Source of the DNA: the human T2T-CHM13v2.0 reference genome, Homo sapiens
Length of the DNA stretch: 64,000 bases
NCBI RefSeq assembly: GCF_009914755.1
Contig: NC_060947.1
Reading direction: 5' to 3' (one strand)
Position 1 is the first letter of the stretch. Each line of letters starts with the position of its first letter. The translations under genes and the position numbers were made by a program. The notes under the pieces were generated by a model. It saw only the letters and a program-made list of their open reading frames with translations, was not told the origin of the DNA and ran no database searches. Below are positions 50,627-58,094 of the stretch, piece after piece.

Positions 50627-51518
50627 ATAGCCATTCTGGAAAACAGTTTTACAGCTTCTTAAAAAAAAAAATGCAACTACTATGCCACGCAGCAATAACA
50701 ATCCTCAGCTTTTAGCCCAGGGAAATGAAAACTTGTGTTCACACAAATCCTGTACATAAATAATCCAATTAAAAATGGGCAAGAGACCTCAGTACACATT
50801 TCTGAAAGGAACACATATAAATGCCTTCTATATAAATAACATATAAATGTTCACAGCAGCTTTATTCATAATTACCAAAAACTGGAAACAACCCAAAGGT
50901 CTTTCAACAATGTGAATGGTTAAACAAACTGTGGTACATCCATACCATCAACTAGTACTTAGCAATAATCAGGAACAAGCAAACTATGAACACAAGCAAC
51001 AACTTGAACGAACCTCCAGAGAATTATGCTTAGTGAAAAGAGTCAATCCTAAAAGGTTACATACTATAAGATTACATTTACATATTCTTAAAATGACAAA
51101 ATTATACAAATGGAGATTAATGGTTGCTAGGGGTTATAAAAGGGGTAGGGTAAGAGGTAGCAATAAAAGTGGGTATGGCAATAAAAGGGCAATATTAGGG
51201 ATTCTTATAGTGATAGAAATGTTCTGAATCTTCTCTATACCAATGTCAATATCCTGTGATATTGTGTAATAGTTTTGCAAGATGTTATCATTAGAGAATA
51301 CTCAGTGAAGTGTACCTTGGGTCTTACTGTATTATGTCTTATAGCTGCATGACAATCTATACTTATTTAGTATAATAAAAATTTATCTAAAAAGTTTAAT
51401 CTAAAAAGAAATATTCTAATTGTTAAATGAGCATTAAAAGCAAACAAATAAAAAACAAGTATTAGAAACATCAATATGTATTCCATAAGTACATAAAATA
51501 TTTTAATTTTTTTATTTT

Positions 51519-51968
51519 TAAAATTTTCTTTTTAATTCTCAGCAAGGCAAGTTACGTCTATATAGAAGGGGGTGCCCTTACAGATGGAACAATGGTGAGC
51601 ACACACTTGGACAAGGGAGGAGAAGGGGTTCTTATCTCTGACACATGTAGCCCCTGCTACTGTGTCGTTCCCCTATTGGCTAGGGTTAGATCGCACAGGC
51701 TAAACTAATTCCAATTGGCTAATTTAAAGAGAATGACTGGGTGAGTGTTTTGGCAGGAGTCAGGGCAGGGCAGGTAGCAGGTAATTGGAATGAGTTAGGG
51801 TGGAGCAGGTGATTGGAATGTAGGGTGGAGCAGGTGATCAGAATGACTCAGGTGGAGTAGGTAATTGAAAAATGTTGCTTTATGAAGAAGTTTAAAAGTA
51901 GAAGGCAAAGAATTGAACATACTGACATATTAATTCTTTGAAAAGAAATTTAGAACTCACATCTAACA
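51519..51968 (-). promoter_or_regulatory. 3' LTR10 (U3-R only) with AP-1 repeat, two CCAAT boxes, TATA-like GATAAGAA and ATTAAA poly(A) signal
   Basis: TGACTCA at 51844-51850; attgg at 51675-51679 and 51714-51718; ttcttatc at 51629-51636; tttaat at 51531-51536. U5 is absent. Confidence 0.75.
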
Positions 51969-52019
51969 ATCCCTCCCCTTGTATTTCCTTACAGCTTTCT
52001 TTTCAAACTTTTTTTAACA

Positions 52020-53860
52020 TGTCTTGGCTTAGTTGTTTTGCTTGGTTTTCTAAAGAAGCAGCTTCTCTGGATAAGGTAGAGGATAGTTAAGGGAGGTTTT
52101 AGTAAGTGCCGTTTTTATGGGCCTCTGTATCTGCTTAGGGTGAATGGTATGACATAGCACTTGACAAGAATAAGTACACCTATTAAGGCTGCAAGAGAAA
52201 TAAGAATTGAGGCTATTATTTCTTTCTATTTACAAAACTACTTTAGCCATCCTGTAAAGGGGTCTTTTATCCCTGAGTTGCTGGCTAACCCATTGGATAG
52301 AGCAGTCAGACCTTGCAATGTCTTTGTTATACTTCTATTAGGGGCGGTGTTGTTTGTGATGAAGGTATAACATTGAGTTTTAATCATGACGCAAACTCCT
52401 CCTCTTTCTGCTAATATCATGTCTAAGGCTATCCTATTTTCTTAAGCCATCTGGCTAGTAGCCCCTAATTGTTTAGCTATTCCTTTAACAGTATCTCTAG
52501 TGTAGTTAATAAATTACTGTTGGTTGTAGTAGATGTAGTTTATCCAATCTACATTTTTATTAATTGTTACTCACCAAAATATTGACTTAAATTCTGCAGC
52601 TGTTTGATCTTAGGCTTTAAACTGATCTAATATTCCCCATGGGACTCCAATTGCGTTTAAATAGACGTGAGAGTTAAAAGACCTATCAGGGGCTTCTCTC
52701 GCTTTACGATGCCTTATTTTTCCTTCCTCTGGTTGATGAAATGCCAGGGTGAAAGGGATAGCCAATTGGACTAAAGTACAAATGCCACTCCAGTTATTTG
52801 GCAGAGTGTCCAGTAAAGGTCCACCACAATACCACCACGCATCCGCTTGGGGATGAACAAGGGCTGACTGGTAAGCTCTTGAAAGTTCTTAAGCTCACTG
52901 CATCCCTTCAGGTCTCCAAGGAATGCTAAGTTTCCTCCCTGTCCTGAGAGACATGAAGTGAACTTAGTGTTGGGAGACAGAAGTTGGTTGGCCCTCGGGG
53001 GCTGACTTGCAGGATGCTGGATTTGGGGATATAGCAGAGAGAGAGCTTGGCACGACTTATTACTCCAGGCTGTAGAATCCTGGAAAAGAGATGCCATGCA
53101 GCCCAAGCCTGGTCGACTGGAGGACCACCTTAGTGGAAAGGGGACAATCTGGGCCTCTGACCTGCTGTGGACACAAGCATAACAATTGCTTTTGTTTAAC
53201 GTGCAGATGGAATATTTGATCCATTTTAACCAGGCATTTACATCTTGGTATCCTGTCTCAATTGCCAAAGTTTAAGTCTTTATCTACCATTGCTATCTTG
53301 GCCTTGTCCTTAGATGGAGGAGGAACAATGGTTCCATTATGAGAGGTTTTGGAAAAAGGTTTAGAGGCAGGTGCAGGCAGCAGGGGATCAAATAAATGCA
53401 TTTCAAAGAATCCAATAGGGTCTGTCCCTGAAACCTCAGCCCCAATACTATAAAAACTGGCTTAAAGAAGGGAACGGCCTTAGAAAAGGAGAAGAACTTT
53501 GGGGGCTTGAAATAATAGCCTGTATAGGGTTGCCCTGGTTTAGCTGACAGTTGCTGCAGGGCTGTCCCTTTAGTAAAATGAATGTATGGTCTTAAGAAAT
53601 TACAAAAACTGGTTTGGGCAGTCCATCCTTGCTCTTTAGTGGTCCACAGAATGTTGGACCAACTATTGCATAAAAGCTCTACATCGGGAGCCAAAACTCC
53701 TGGTTGACACTGGGGTCTTTATTGAAATCTCCCCAGATTACATGGTCTCAATTTACTAATGCCCAGTCTGAGGAGAGTCAGGAGGGACAGAGGTACTTTT
53801 CTGTAGTATAGAGCTGTCTTTGACTTGGCAAGTCCCCATAGGGTATAACAAGGCAAGCAT
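52020..53860 (-). pseudogene. Decayed HERV-I/IP env
   Basis: TM segment MILAERGGVCVMIKTQCYTF (ISD end plus CX6CC changed to CX6CY) and SU segment AIETGYQDVNAWLKWIKYS...NCYAC. Multiple stops. Confidence 0.8.
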
Positions 53861-53868
53861 AAAATGTA

Positions 53869-54151
53869 GCCAGGTGCAGTGGCTCATGCCTGTGATCCCA
53901 GCACTTTGGGAGGCCGAGATGGGTGGATCACAAGGTCAGGAGATCGAGACTATCCCGGCTAACACAGTGAAACCCTGTCTCTACTAAAAATACAAAAAAT
54001 TAGCTGGGCGTGGTGGTGGGCGCCTGTAGTCCCAGCTACTTGGGAGGCTGAGGCAGGAGAATGGCATGAACCTGGGAGGCGGAGCTTTTAGTGAGCTGAG
54101 ATCACACCACCGCACTCCAGCCTGGGTGGCAGAGTGAGACTCCGTCTCAAA
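53869..54151 (+). mobile_element. AluY inside the ERV, very short A tail
   Basis: gagatcgagactatcccggctaacac, atggcatgaacctgggaggcggagc. TSD aaaatgta at 53861-53868 and 54152-54159. Confidence 0.92.
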
Positions 54152-54249
54152 AAAATGTAATAATTTGAGGCAAAATTGACTTGGTTATGTTAATAACTAG
54201 ATGGTCAGCAATAGAGCGAGAAAAGAAGAAAGAGTAATAGAATAGATGA

Positions 54250-56810: not shown

Positions 56811-56912
56811 AGGGTAGGGACCTGGGGGAGTGGAGCTACTCTCTCTTTCCCCAAGAAAAAAGGAAAGGGGGGGATTGTGTCAGGTTCAACCCTTGAAATT
56901 AGCAGAAGGCTT

Positions 56913-57150
56913 AACCCCTCAACACCAGGGATGTCTTGCCTTGCCTGTCTCAGAAGGCCCAACCTCTCAACACCAGGGATGTCTCACCTTGCCTGTCGCA
57001 GAAGGCCCAAACCCTCAACACTAGGGATGTCTCACCTTGACTGTCCTGAAAGGCTCAACCCCCTCAAACCAGGGGGCATCTTGCGTTGCTTGCCCTGGAA
57101 GGCTCAACCCCTCAAACCAGGGGGTGTCTTGCCTGTCCTGGAGGGTTGAG
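56913..57150 (+). repeat. ~48-bp tandem repeat, about 5 copies, in the ERV leader
   Basis: Units aacccctcaacaccagggatgtcttgccttgcctgtctcagaaggccc at ~56913, 56961, 57009, 57057 and 57106. Confidence 0.85.
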
Positions 57151-57726
57151 CTATTTCTCCCCTTTCTCCCTCTGAAGGTCCTCTGCACACTTCCTACTGG
57201 TGCTGTCCTCTCTGGCCACTCCCCCAAGGTAGAATCAGGCCCTTCTTAGTGTTGGCATGCCAGTATAAATCCTATGGCAGGATCCGCCCTAAGCCATATG
57301 AGATAGCTATGGAACCGCAGAGAGGACCCACTCACTCCGTCCAGCAGTAGGACTTGTCACCATCCACATGAACAACACCGCAAGCAGGGTCGTTTGTAGT
57401 CATTCATGCACACACACATTTAGCCCTCCAGAATTTGACCACCAAGGAAATACTTTACCAGCTCCTGAGGCTTCTCCTTGCTTGGTCTGTGCACAGAATT
57501 GTCGCCGCAGTATGTGAGAATCCTTTAAGCTAGGTTGCGGGCCAGTTTTTTGTTTGTTTGGTTGGTTGGCTGGTTTTTTTTTTTTTTTTCTTTTTGCTTT
57601 GCTGAGAGCTCGGTTTATTCCTCGCACTGGGTGGGTCTTGATTTCTCACCCCTGAGGCCACCACAATAGGGTGGGGTGCACCTCCTCATGAGAGAGAACC
57701 AGAGACCATCCCTGGAGGGGAATGTA

Positions 57727-57745
57727 ATCCTGGGTGAGACCTCAA
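57727..57745 (-). promoter_or_regulatory. Degenerate tRNA-Pro primer binding site
   Basis: Reverse complement ttgaggtctcacccaggat versus canonical tgggggctcgtccgggat, immediately after the U5 end (...taaca). Confidence 0.65.
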
Positions 57746-57747
57746 AT

Positions 57748-57880
57748 TGTTATATATAAAGATTTGGTGCCGCAAAAGAAATAGCACTTGAATATAAAAT
57801 TTACTTTTTAATTCTCAGCAAGGCAAGTTACTTCTATATAGAAGGGTGCACCCTTACAGATGTAACAGTGGCAAGCACAC
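57748..57880 (-). mobile_element. 5' LTR10 remnant (R-U5 only)
   Basis: Homologous to 51519-51604 (R) plus U5 ending ...atatataaca. U3 is absent. Confidence 0.85.
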
Positions 57881-58094
57881 CTAATTTTTAAAATTCTCAT
57901 TGTTGTTATGTTATTGATCACTCTGATATTCAAGGTGTCACCTCTTATTTGATTAATCACCCTTATAAGTCTCTAAATCTTTTTTATCTATACATCTTCA
58001 ATTTCCTGAAAAATAGCCAGATAAGAGCAAAATTTTATGTAGGGTGTAGTAACAGGGATCAGAACAGTATTCCCTTGAAAGCTAAACATAATGA

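What the first reader, a model, noticed from the sequence alone, without database searches (positions are those of the whole stretch)
51504..57889. HERV-IP10/LTR10 element with the structure of an L1-retroposed viral mRNA (ERV processed pseudogene)
Seen in sequence: the 5' LTR (57748-57880) has only R-U5. It starts at the position equivalent to ~51604 in the other LTR, about 30 nt downstream of a TATA-like GATAAGAA with two CCAAT boxes upstream, which is the predicted transcription start. One extra G (C at 57881) is not templated by the other LTR. The 3' LTR has only U3-R and stops about 12 nt after ATTAAA, followed by a short A-rich tail. Both ends are flanked by TAATTTTT (51504-51511, 57882-57889), and the rebuilt empty site reads TTTTT/AAAA. 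Established: integrase makes complete TG...CA LTRs with 4-6 bp TSDs. R-U5/U3-R-poly(A) ends, a cap-derived 5' G, longer TSDs and a TTTT/AA nick are hallmarks of L1 ORF2p retrotransposition, best known for HERV-W processed pseudogenes. Inference: full-length HERV-IP10 RNA was mobilised in trans by L1. I do not recall this route being well documented for this family. It would spread LTR10 U3 enhancers without viral integrase, and it maps the LTR10 TSS and poly(A) site.
Basis: partly seen in the sequence, partly recalled or inferred. Interest (0 to 1): 0.85.

Follow-up and report, generated by a model that had tools for sequence, protein, structure and literature searches.

The report
L1-made retrocopy of HERVIP10 viral RNA
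This decayed endogenous retrovirus copy has the shape of its own messenger RNA and was most likely pasted into chromosome X by the LINE-1 machinery, and at least nine more copies of the same family elsewhere in this genome show the same thing.

Summary
On the minus strand, window 51504-57889 carries an LTR10/HERVIP10-type element. Its 5' LTR is only R-U5 (57880->57748). Its 3' LTR is only U3-R (51968->51519), followed by a short A-rich tail. Measured against a natural 505-bp solo LTR, 372 nt of U3 are missing at the 5' end and 47 nt of U5 at the 3' end. No displaced U3 or U5 piece lies anywhere in the 64-kb window.

The target does read TTTT/AAAAA.

The stronger evidence comes from the rest of the genome. 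Nine further loci have the same R-end stop. Three of these are full-length and begin at the same nucleotide as the window copy. Six are 5'-truncated. Six of the nine have statistically clear 9-18 bp target-site duplications. In three of the four full-length copies an untemplated G precedes the first R base; the fourth is ambiguous.

The internal region is colinear with a complete-LTR provirus, so the template was unspliced genomic RNA. This matches HERV-W processed pseudogenes, in a family for which my literature searches found no such report. A 2017 review calls HERV-W the sole HERV group mobilised by L1. Verdict: supported; a new member of a known kind.

The parts
57882..57889 (-). 5' copy of the putative target-site duplication (AAAAATTA on the element strand), preceded by TTTT
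   Evidence: Not significant alone.
57881..57881 (-). Extra G ahead of the first R base. It is not templated by the LTR, which has T here.
   Evidence: The same G occurs in the chr2:213.89M copy and the chr4:110.71M copy.
57795..57880 (-). 5' R region; starts at ruler position 373
   Evidence: (D8).
57748..57794 (-). U5, ending in CA at 57749-57748
57727..57744 (-). Primer-binding-site-like 18-mer, 3 nt after the LTR end (inferred from position; tRNA type not tested)
   Evidence: sequence reading only.
51969..57747 (-). Internal region, colinear end to end with a complete-LTR provirus at chr14:25.16M (76-89% identity per block). It is therefore a copy of unspliced genomic RNA.
56903..57134 (.). 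48-bp tandem repeat, 4.8 copies, in the leader region
   Evidence: (D3, D4).
56387..56810 (.). TC/GA-rich simple repeat inside the element; overlaps the RefSeq 'enhancer' 56135-56648
   Evidence: (D1, D2); hub annotation.
55630..55815 (-). RNase H remnant
   Evidence: PF00075, E 4.6e-4, 20.8 bits, below the cut-off of 25.8.
54150..54665 (-). Integrase C-terminal remnant of gammaretroviral (MLV) type
   Evidence: PF18697, E 1.9e-6, 27.9 bits, below the cut-off of 29.2.
53871..54156 (+). Later Alu insertion, antisense to the element, flanked by AAAATGTA on both sides
52241..52441 (-). Env transmembrane-subunit remnant
   Evidence: PF00429 TLV_coat, E 5.8e-4, 19.1 bits, below the cut-off of 22.5.
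51969..51980 (-). Purine-rich tract directly before the 3' LTR (polypurine tract, inferred)
51605..51968 (-). U3 of the 3' LTR, starting with TG. Contains a 25-28 bp tandem repeat (51776-51867), one AP-1 core (51844-51850), two CCAAT boxes and GATAAGAA at -32.
51519..51604 (-). 3' R, with ATTAAA at 51536->51531. Homology to complete LTRs stops at 51519 (ruler position 458).
51512..51518 (-). A-rich tail (AAAATAA; up to 12 nt if the As of the TSD are counted)
51504..51511 (-). 3' copy of the putative target-site duplication

Best explanation
A full-length, unspliced, capped and polyadenylated transcript of an LTR10/HERVIP10-type provirus was reverse-transcribed and inserted by LINE-1 ORF2p acting in trans (target-primed reverse transcription). 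The transcript started at the U3/R border of the 5' LTR and was cleaved about 12 nt after the ATTAAA in the 3' LTR.

Proposed steps:
1. L1 endonuclease nicked a TTTT/AAAAA site.
2. The A tail primed cDNA synthesis.
3. Synthesis ran to the cap, which added one G.
4. The copy was sealed with a short duplication of the target.

The product lacks its promoter at the 5' end and so is transcriptionally dead as a provirus. It still carries one U3, with its tandem-repeat/AP-1 region, at its 3' end.

Shown: the two truncation points, the tail, the extra G, colinearity with a provirus, and recurrence at nine other loci with long TSDs.
Inferred: that the enzyme was L1, the cap origin of the G, and the age (tens of millions of years).
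For: 1. LTR truncations lie exactly at the R borders. No displaced U3 or U5 is present in 64 kb.

2. The R-end stop recurs. Of the 40 provirus 3' ends scored (of 176 candidates), 5 stop at ruler 455-463:
- the window, chrX:138.17M, chr4:82.61M and chr2:213.90M, each with an A tail;
- chr4:110.72M, without a tail.
Of the remaining 35, 31 have U5 and 4 are unclear.

3. The R-start recurs. Of the 40 leader hits scored (of 184 candidates), 3 begin at the R start: the window, chr2:213.89M and chrX:138.16M. Of the rest, 32 have U3 upstream and 5 gave no LTR match.

4. A junction motif (R end, up to 10 nt, then A7) finds exactly 9 loci in the genome and 0 with the reversed control. A 34-nt motif with up to 3 mismatches gave 114 hits. 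Eight of these are the A-tail type and the others listed are normal LTRs.

5. Six of the ten loci are 5'-truncated, at six different junctions by sequence: in env, near the end of the internal region, or inside U3.

6. TSDs, with the number of shuffles reaching the observed score:
- chr4:82.61M: 14/14 bp, 0/500
- chr6:44.02M: 17/18 bp, 0/500
- chr2:219.29M: 14/15 bp, 0/500
- chr6:87.26M: 12/13 bp, 2/500
- chrX:138.16M: 9/9 bp, 0/500 (all five)
- chr4:110.71M: 14/14 bp, 0/500

7. All four full-length copies start at the same base. In the window, chr2:213.89M and chr4:110.71M copies it is preceded by a G where LTRs have T. The chrX copy is ambiguous because the G can belong to its TSD.

8. The stop position varies by a few nt (ruler 455, 456, 457, 458, about 463). 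Poly(A)-site microheterogeneity predicts this; a shared deletion does not.

9. The window target reads TTTT/AAAAA. Several other targets read TT/AAGA, TT/AGAA or TC/AAAA.

10. The internal region is colinear with a complete-LTR provirus.
Against: - The window copy's own TSD (8 bp) is not distinguishable from chance. Its tail is short (7-12 nt) and sits in A/T-rich DNA, so its boundaries are uncertain by a few nt. A competing 12-nt repeat overlaps the R end (D11).
- Four of the ten loci have no significant TSD: the window, chr2:213.89M (351/500 shuffles), chr7:142.16M (84/500) and chr8:91.33M (75/500).
- The chr4:110.71M copy has no A tail at all.
- Some target motifs are poor matches to TT/AAAA, for example chrX:138.16M and chr6:87.26M.
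- No orthologous empty site could be examined, because no primate genomes are held.
- The TSS and poly(A) site are inferred only from these copies, not from CAGE or 3'-end data.
Confidence: 0.9

Rival explanations
1. An ordinary integrase-made provirus that later lost U3 of its 5' LTR and U5 of its 3' LTR through two independent deletions.
For: Old proviruses are often damaged. Among the 40 3' ends surveyed, 4 are broken at other places (L038, L053, L103, L106). The window TSD is not significant.
Against: - Both breaks fall on the R borders.
- The same two borders recur at 3 other full-length loci, and the same 3' border at 6 more.
- A tails follow the break in 9 of 10 loci.
- TSDs of 9-18 bp are incompatible with retroviral integrase, which gives 4-6 bp (established knowledge).
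Confidence: 0.03
2. An RNA-derived copy made by a reverse transcriptase other than L1 ORF2p, for example a retroviral RT with the cDNA captured at a DNA break.
For: The chr4:110.71M copy has a 14-bp TSD but no A tail. Some target sites are poor L1 endonuclease motifs.
Against: A tails, variable 5' truncation, 9-18 bp TSDs and T-rich/A-rich nick sites together are the L1 signature. Retroviral RT primes at the primer-binding site and regenerates full LTRs (established knowledge). L1 was the active autonomous non-LTR element in anthropoid primates (recalled).
Confidence: 0.05
3. The short LTR-only copies (chr2:219.29M, chr7:142.16M, chr6:87.26M) do not come from viral RNA. They would be retrocopies of host or read-through transcripts that merely ended at a solo LTR10 poly(A) site. 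This rival concerns the family count, not the window copy.
For: These three copies hold only 195-403 nt of U3-R, so their template cannot be identified.
Against: It does not apply to the window copy or to the other three full-length copies. It also does not apply to chr4:82.61M, chr6:44.02M or chr8:91.33M, which carry internal sequence.
Confidence: 0.3

Closest known systems
HERV-W (HERV17/LTR17) processed pseudogenes made by LINE-1. Sources: Pavlicek et al. 2002, seen only as cited in the reference list of PMC5537654, paper not held; Grandi et al. 2016, PMC5016936, passages read.
   Same: 5' LTR reduced to R-U5, 3' LTR reduced to U3-R, poly(A) tail and flanking duplications (definition quoted). 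Here there are also frequent 5' truncation, an unspliced genomic RNA template and a promoterless product.
   Different: - Different family: LTR10/HERVIP10-type, supergroup HERVIPADP rather than HERVW9 in the tables seen.
- Far fewer copies: at least 10 found here, against 135 of 213 HERV-W elements.
- A minority of the family: 5 of 40 3' ends surveyed.
Canonical HERVIP10-type proviruses with complete LTRs, for example chr14:25.16M in this genome (L063, L113, L032)
   Same: The same LTR and the same colinear internal region of about 5.2-5.7 kb.
   Different: They have U3-R-U5 at both ends. The window copy lacks U3 at the 5' end and U5 at the 3' end, and ends in an A tail.
Cellular processed pseudogenes (retrocopies) made by L1; the hub annotation lists GAPDHP77 as the nearest gene after the window
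   Same: Same inferred mechanism and hallmarks: RNA-colinear copy, A tail, TSD, TT/AAAA target and 5' truncation (established knowledge).
   Different: The template is an unspliced retroviral genomic RNA, so the copy mimics a provirus and carries a U3 enhancer/promoter module at its 3' end.

Membership tests
L1-mediated processed pseudogene (retrocopy) | Copy is colinear with the mature RNA: starts at the transcription start and ends at the poly(A) site | tested here: met
   Starts at ruler 373 and stops at ruler 458. Three other loci share the same start and nine share the same stop within a few nt. The start and stop are defined by the copies themselves plus the position of the TATA-like box and ATTAAA, not by transcript data.
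L1-mediated processed pseudogene (retrocopy) | Poly(A) tail at the 3' end | tested here: met
   The window has 7-12 A-rich nt with one T, which is weak. Eight other loci have tails of about 7-25 nt. One locus (chr4:110.71M) has none.
L1-mediated processed pseudogene (retrocopy) | Target-site duplication of about 7-20 bp | tested here: inconclusive
   The window has 8 bp, reached by 1560/20000 and 121/500 shuffles. At the family level 6 of 10 loci have 9-18 bp TSDs reached by 0-2 of 500 shuffles.
L1-mediated processed pseudogene (retrocopy) | L1 endonuclease target motif (TT/AAAA on the element strand) | tested here: met
   The window reads aatttt/AAAAATTA. In A/T-rich DNA this is weak evidence on its own.
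L1-mediated processed pseudogene (retrocopy) | Variable 5' truncation among copies | tested here: met
   6 of 10 loci are truncated, at six different junctions by sequence. Blast places two pairs of junctions within 1-10 nt of each other.
L1-mediated processed pseudogene (retrocopy) | Precise empty site in species that diverged before the insertion | not testable with these tools
   No primate genomes are held.
Integrase-made provirus | Two complete LTRs (TG...CA) and a 4-6 bp TSD | tested here: not met
   The 5' LTR lacks ruler 1-372 and the 3' LTR lacks ruler 459-505.
LTR10 / HERVIP10 (HERV-IP) family | LTR homologous to a large set of genomic LTRs that carry a tandem repeat of about 28-30 bp with an AP-1 motif (LTR10A/F as described in 10.1101/2021.10.28.466196, passages read) | tested here: met
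   795 candidate LTR matches in the genome, of which 40 were scored at 85-92% identity. A 25-28 bp repeat of 3.4 copies holds one TGACTCA.
LTR10 / HERVIP10 (HERV-IP) family | Match to the Repbase/Dfam LTR10 and HERVIP10F/FH reference entries | not testable with these tools
No repeat library is on hand. The pairing of HERVIP10F/FH with LTR10F/LTR10A is from the table in PMC5753468.
LTR10 / HERVIP10 (HERV-IP) family | Gammaretrovirus-like pol and env | tested here: inconclusive
   RNase_H, MLVIN_C and TLV_coat match in the expected order, with E from 5.8e-4 to 1.9e-6, but all fall below Pfam's curated cut-offs.

The most novel reading that the evidence does not exclude
HERVIP10/LTR10 is a second human endogenous-retrovirus group that LINE-1 copied repeatedly: at least 10 loci in T2T-CHM13, of which 4 are full-length and 6 are 5'-truncated. 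This would contradict the published view that HERV-W is the only such group.

The copies also give a sequence-only map of the LTR10 transcription start (with a cap-derived G) and cleavage site. They show that LTR10 U3 modules, known as AP-1-dependent enhancers, were partly spread without integrase.
Probability: 0.5. Interest if true: 0.65.

Novelty: new member of a known kind. Interest (0 to 1): 0.55.

Why it matters
- It extends L1-driven copying of retroviral RNA beyond HERV-W. [quoted passage not shown] The large HERV census did not separate such copies from proviruses (PMC4724089).
- For annotation, these loci should not be counted as integration events, dated by LTR-LTR divergence or expected to have promoter activity at their 5' end.
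- For LTR10 biology, the copies fix R at about 83-91 nt. That places the start about 31 nt after the ATAAGAA box and the cleavage site 9-17 nt after ATTAAA. These positions can be tested against CAGE and 3'-end data.
- Each copy also deposits one U3, with its AP-1 tandem-repeat region, at a site chosen by L1 rather than by integrase.

Tried and rejected
- Pavlicek et al. 2002 (PMC155283) is not held. I could not check whether that paper mentions other families. Costas 2002 was not looked up.
- Literature searches gave only listings, and I read only passages. The searches were: HERVIP10 + processed pseudogene (9 papers); HERV-IP + processed pseudogenes (3 papers); U3-R/R-U5/L1-mediated; HERV-H/HERV-9/LINE-mediated; a six-term query (0 papers); HERVIP10F + poly. 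In the six papers I opened, using term-matched passages only, none links this family to L1 retrocopies. Supplements were not opened.
- I first suspected that chr4:110.72M (L050) was an L1 insertion into U5, or an ERV-L1 template-switch chimera. That was rejected. The ERV copy is bracketed by a perfect 14-bp duplication of the surrounding older L1 ORF2 sequence, so the ERV inserted into the L1.
- chr14:78.18M looked like an A-tail copy but is a normal LTR with an expanded A run.
- No tree of the LTRs was built. In pairwise identities the window's 3' LTR is closer to several normal LTRs (91-92%) than to the other retrocopies (88-90%). There is therefore no sign of a single source, but this was not tested properly.
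- The primer-binding-site type was not tested.

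
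Full report
WHAT IS THERE

The element lies on the minus strand of the window. A direct-repeat search finds one long repeat pair at its ends: 51519-51604 and 57795-57880, 86 nt, 90% identical (family D8).

The window's own genome is held (T2T human; the window is contig 23:107632001-107696000). A search with the 3' LTR piece returned 795 candidates, of which 40 were scored at 85-92% identity. I took one natural solo LTR (L003:1432-1936, 505 bp) as a coordinate ruler.

- The window's 3' piece equals ruler 1-458 (51969->51519).
- The window's 5' piece equals ruler 373-505 (57880->57748).
- Nothing else in the 64 kb matches the LTR beyond 29 nt or below E = 0.026.

The 5' LTR therefore lacks 372 nt of U3 and the 3' LTR lacks 47 nt of U5. 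Neither missing piece has been displaced by an insertion.

The borders agree with 29 other copies:
- 22 start at window 51966-51977, and the other 7 run on into internal sequence.
- 24 end at 57742-57763.
- 2 continue into the leader.
- 3 lack U5 (see below).

The 3' LTR begins with TG after a purine tract. The 5' LTR ends with CA and is followed by a primer-binding-site-like 18-mer.

PROMOTER AND POLY(A) GEOMETRY

On the element strand the R start (51604 in the 3' LTR) lies 32 nt after GATAAGAA. Two CCAAT boxes lie upstream. ATTAAA (51536->51531) lies 12 nt before the last base that still matches complete LTRs (51519). After that come AAAATAA, AAAAATTA and then the flank.

At the 5' end the flank reads ...ATTTT AAAAATTA, then G, then the first R base. 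Complete LTRs have T where this G stands.

HOW MUCH OF IT IS BEYOND CHANCE

The 8-bp flanking repeat is not beyond chance. With the 5' junction fixed:
- 1560 of 20000 shuffles of the 3' flank give an anchored match at least as long.
- 111 of 1628 real A/T-rich 60-mers from the window do the same.
- A wider scoring test gave 121 of 500.

A competing 12-nt repeat overlaps the R end (D11), so the boundaries are uncertain by a few bases. Taken alone, the window copy rests on the two truncation points, the short tail, the TTTT/AAAAA target and the extra G.

THE SAME STRUCTURE ELSEWHERE IN THE GENOME

1. 3' ends. A query from the last 432 nt of the internal region scored 40 loci out of 176 candidates. 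I examined all 40.
- 5 stop at ruler 455-463: the window, chrX:138.17M, chr4:82.61M and chr2:213.90M with A tails, and chr4:110.72M without one.
- 31 have U5.
- 4 are broken elsewhere or gave no match (L038, L053, L103 with an Alu in U5, L106).

2. 5' ends. A leader query scored 40 loci out of 184 candidates. Its loci could not be cut out, so I fetched short upstream stretches.
- 3 begin at the R start: the window, chr2:213.89M and chrX:138.16M.
- 32 have U3 upstream. This count includes 2 with only weak, 69-70% matches and 3 known.
- 5 gave no LTR match.

3. Motif searches.
- The R end followed by As, with up to 3 mismatches, gave 114 hits. The 8 hits with 0-2 mismatches are A-tail copies. 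Those listed with 3 mismatches are normal LTRs, apart from chr14:78.18M, which proved to be a normal LTR with an expanded A run.
- A degenerate motif (R end, 0-10 nt, A7) gave 9 hits and 0 with the reversed control.

4. The tenth locus. Following the tail-less chr4 copy upstream showed that it too begins at the R start.

The set is ten loci:
- Four are full-length: the window, chr2:213.89M, chrX:138.16M and chr4:110.71M.
- Six are 5'-truncated. chr4:82.61M is truncated in env. chr6:44.02M and chr8:91.33M are truncated about 140-150 nt before the LTR. chr6:87.26M, chr2:219.29M and chr7:142.16M are truncated inside U3.

This is a lower bound. It is biased toward well-preserved R ends of this LTR subtype.

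TARGET-SITE DUPLICATIONS AND TARGETS

I used one scoring rule and 500 shuffles per locus.

| Locus | TSD (matches/length) | Shuffles reaching the score |
|---|---|---|
| chr4:82.61M | 14/14 | 0/500 |
| chr4:110.71M | 14/14 | 0/500 |
| chr6:44.02M | 17/18 | 0/500 |
| chr2:219.29M | 14/15 | 0/500 |
| chrX:138.16M | 9/9 | 0/500 |
| chr6:87.26M | 12/13 | 2/500 |
| window | 8/8 | 121/500 |
| chr7:142.16M | 12/15 | 84/500 |
| chr8:91.33M | 8/8 | 75/500 |
| chr2:213.89M | none detectable | 351/500 |

The bases around the start of the TSD read tttt/AAAAA, tt/AAGA, tt/AGAA, tc/AAAA and ct/GAAAA. Two are weaker: ac/AAAG and ac/AACT. Duplications of 9-18 bp are not what retroviral integrase makes (established knowledge).

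THE 5' G

All four full-length copies start at the same R base. In the window, chr2:213.89M and chr4:110.71M copies a G precedes it. That G is in neither the LTR (T at that place in every complete LTR shown) nor the target. The chr4:110.71M case is unambiguous, because the target is known L1 sequence and the TSD is perfect. In chrX:138.16M the G can be read as part of the TSD. An extra 5' G is what reverse transcription through a cap gives (recalled from the L1 and retrocopy literature; not checked here).

THE 3' STOP

The stop varies among loci: ruler 455, 456, 457, 458 and about 463. This fits the microheterogeneity of cleavage sites. It does not fit inheritance of one deletion.

TEMPLATE

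The window's internal region (51969-57747) is colinear from end to end with the provirus at chr14:25.16M, which has complete LTRs. The exceptions are length differences in the GA-rich and 48-bp repeats, and independent Alu insertions. The template was therefore unspliced genomic RNA of the common form of this family, about 5.2-5.7 kb long.

Pfam finds RNase H, MLV-type integrase C-terminus and TLV_coat remnants in that order. All are below the curated cut-offs. A later Alu sits at 53871-54156.

MECHANISM

The best explanation, at about 0.9, is that L1 ORF2p nicked a T-rich/A-rich site, primed on the A tail of a capped HERVIP10 genomic RNA and copied it to the cap. The R borders, tails, TSDs, truncations and colinearity are shown. 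The enzyme, the cap origin of the G and the age are inferred.

The two R copies differ at about 10% of 86 nt. This is compatible with an age of tens of millions of years and with the roughly 30-million-year age given for the family (10.1101/2021.10.28.466196, passage), but it is a very rough figure.

Rivals:
- Two independent deletions of a normal provirus: about 0.03.
- Another reverse transcriptase or capture of cDNA at a break: about 0.05.

COMPARISON WITH WHAT IS KNOWN

The structure is that of the HERV-W processed pseudogenes, as defined in the passage of PMC5016936 read: 5' R-U5, 3' U3-R, poly(A) tail; 135 of 213 HERV-W elements.

[quoted passage not shown] - Six searches, and term-matched passages of six papers that mention both topics or the family, gave no report of L1-made HERVIP10 copies.
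- Limits: Pavlicek et al. 2002 is not held, Costas 2002 was not looked up, no supplements were read, and Repbase/Dfam notes are not on hand.

The family name itself could not be tested against a repeat library. The LTR does carry the 25-28 bp tandem repeat with an AP-1 core described for LTR10A/F.

VERDICT

The mechanism is known, so this is a new member of a known kind, not a new kind. Its value is threefold. It shows that the phenomenon is not confined to HERV-W. It corrects how these ten loci should be read. It also gives testable positions for the LTR10 transcription start and poly(A) site.

Noticed in passing
L116/L115/L050 (G000 contig 4: about 110714605-110721160): A full-length R-to-R copy of the same family sits inside an older L1 ORF2 sequence. 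It has a perfect 14-bp TSD and an extra 5' G, but no A tail: only two T lie between the R end and the TSD. Its poly(A) signal reads AATAAA-like rather than ATTAAA. How a tail-less copy was primed is unexplained.
   Followed up: yes
window 56135-56648 and 56387-56810: The RefSeq 'enhancer' annotated inside the element coincides largely with a TC/GA-rich simple repeat in the element's leader region (period 2 and 18), not with the LTR.
   Followed up: no
window 56903-57134: A 48-bp tandem repeat, 4.8 copies at 81% match, lies between the leader and the GA-rich repeat. The chr14 provirus has the same region with a different length.
   Followed up: partly
window 53871-54156: An Alu inserted antisense into the element, flanked by AAAATGTA on both sides. 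The chr14 provirus has two different Alus at other places.
   Followed up: partly
L111 (G000 contig 8: 91329434-91330267): This 5'-truncated copy lies between the A tail of an Alu and L1 ORF2-like sequence. It apparently inserted at the end of an Alu tail that itself sat in an L1.
   Followed up: no
L112 (G000 contig 14: 78177460-78178293): A normal complete LTR in which the stretch after the poly(A) signal has become a run of about 20 A. It mimics an A-tail copy in motif searches.
   Followed up: yes
L107 and L110; L108 and L111: Two pairs of independent 5'-truncated copies break at nearly the same place: ruler 260/261, and window-equivalent 52108/52118. Their flanks and TSDs differ. This may be coincidence or a preferred stop for the reverse transcriptase.
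   Followed up: no
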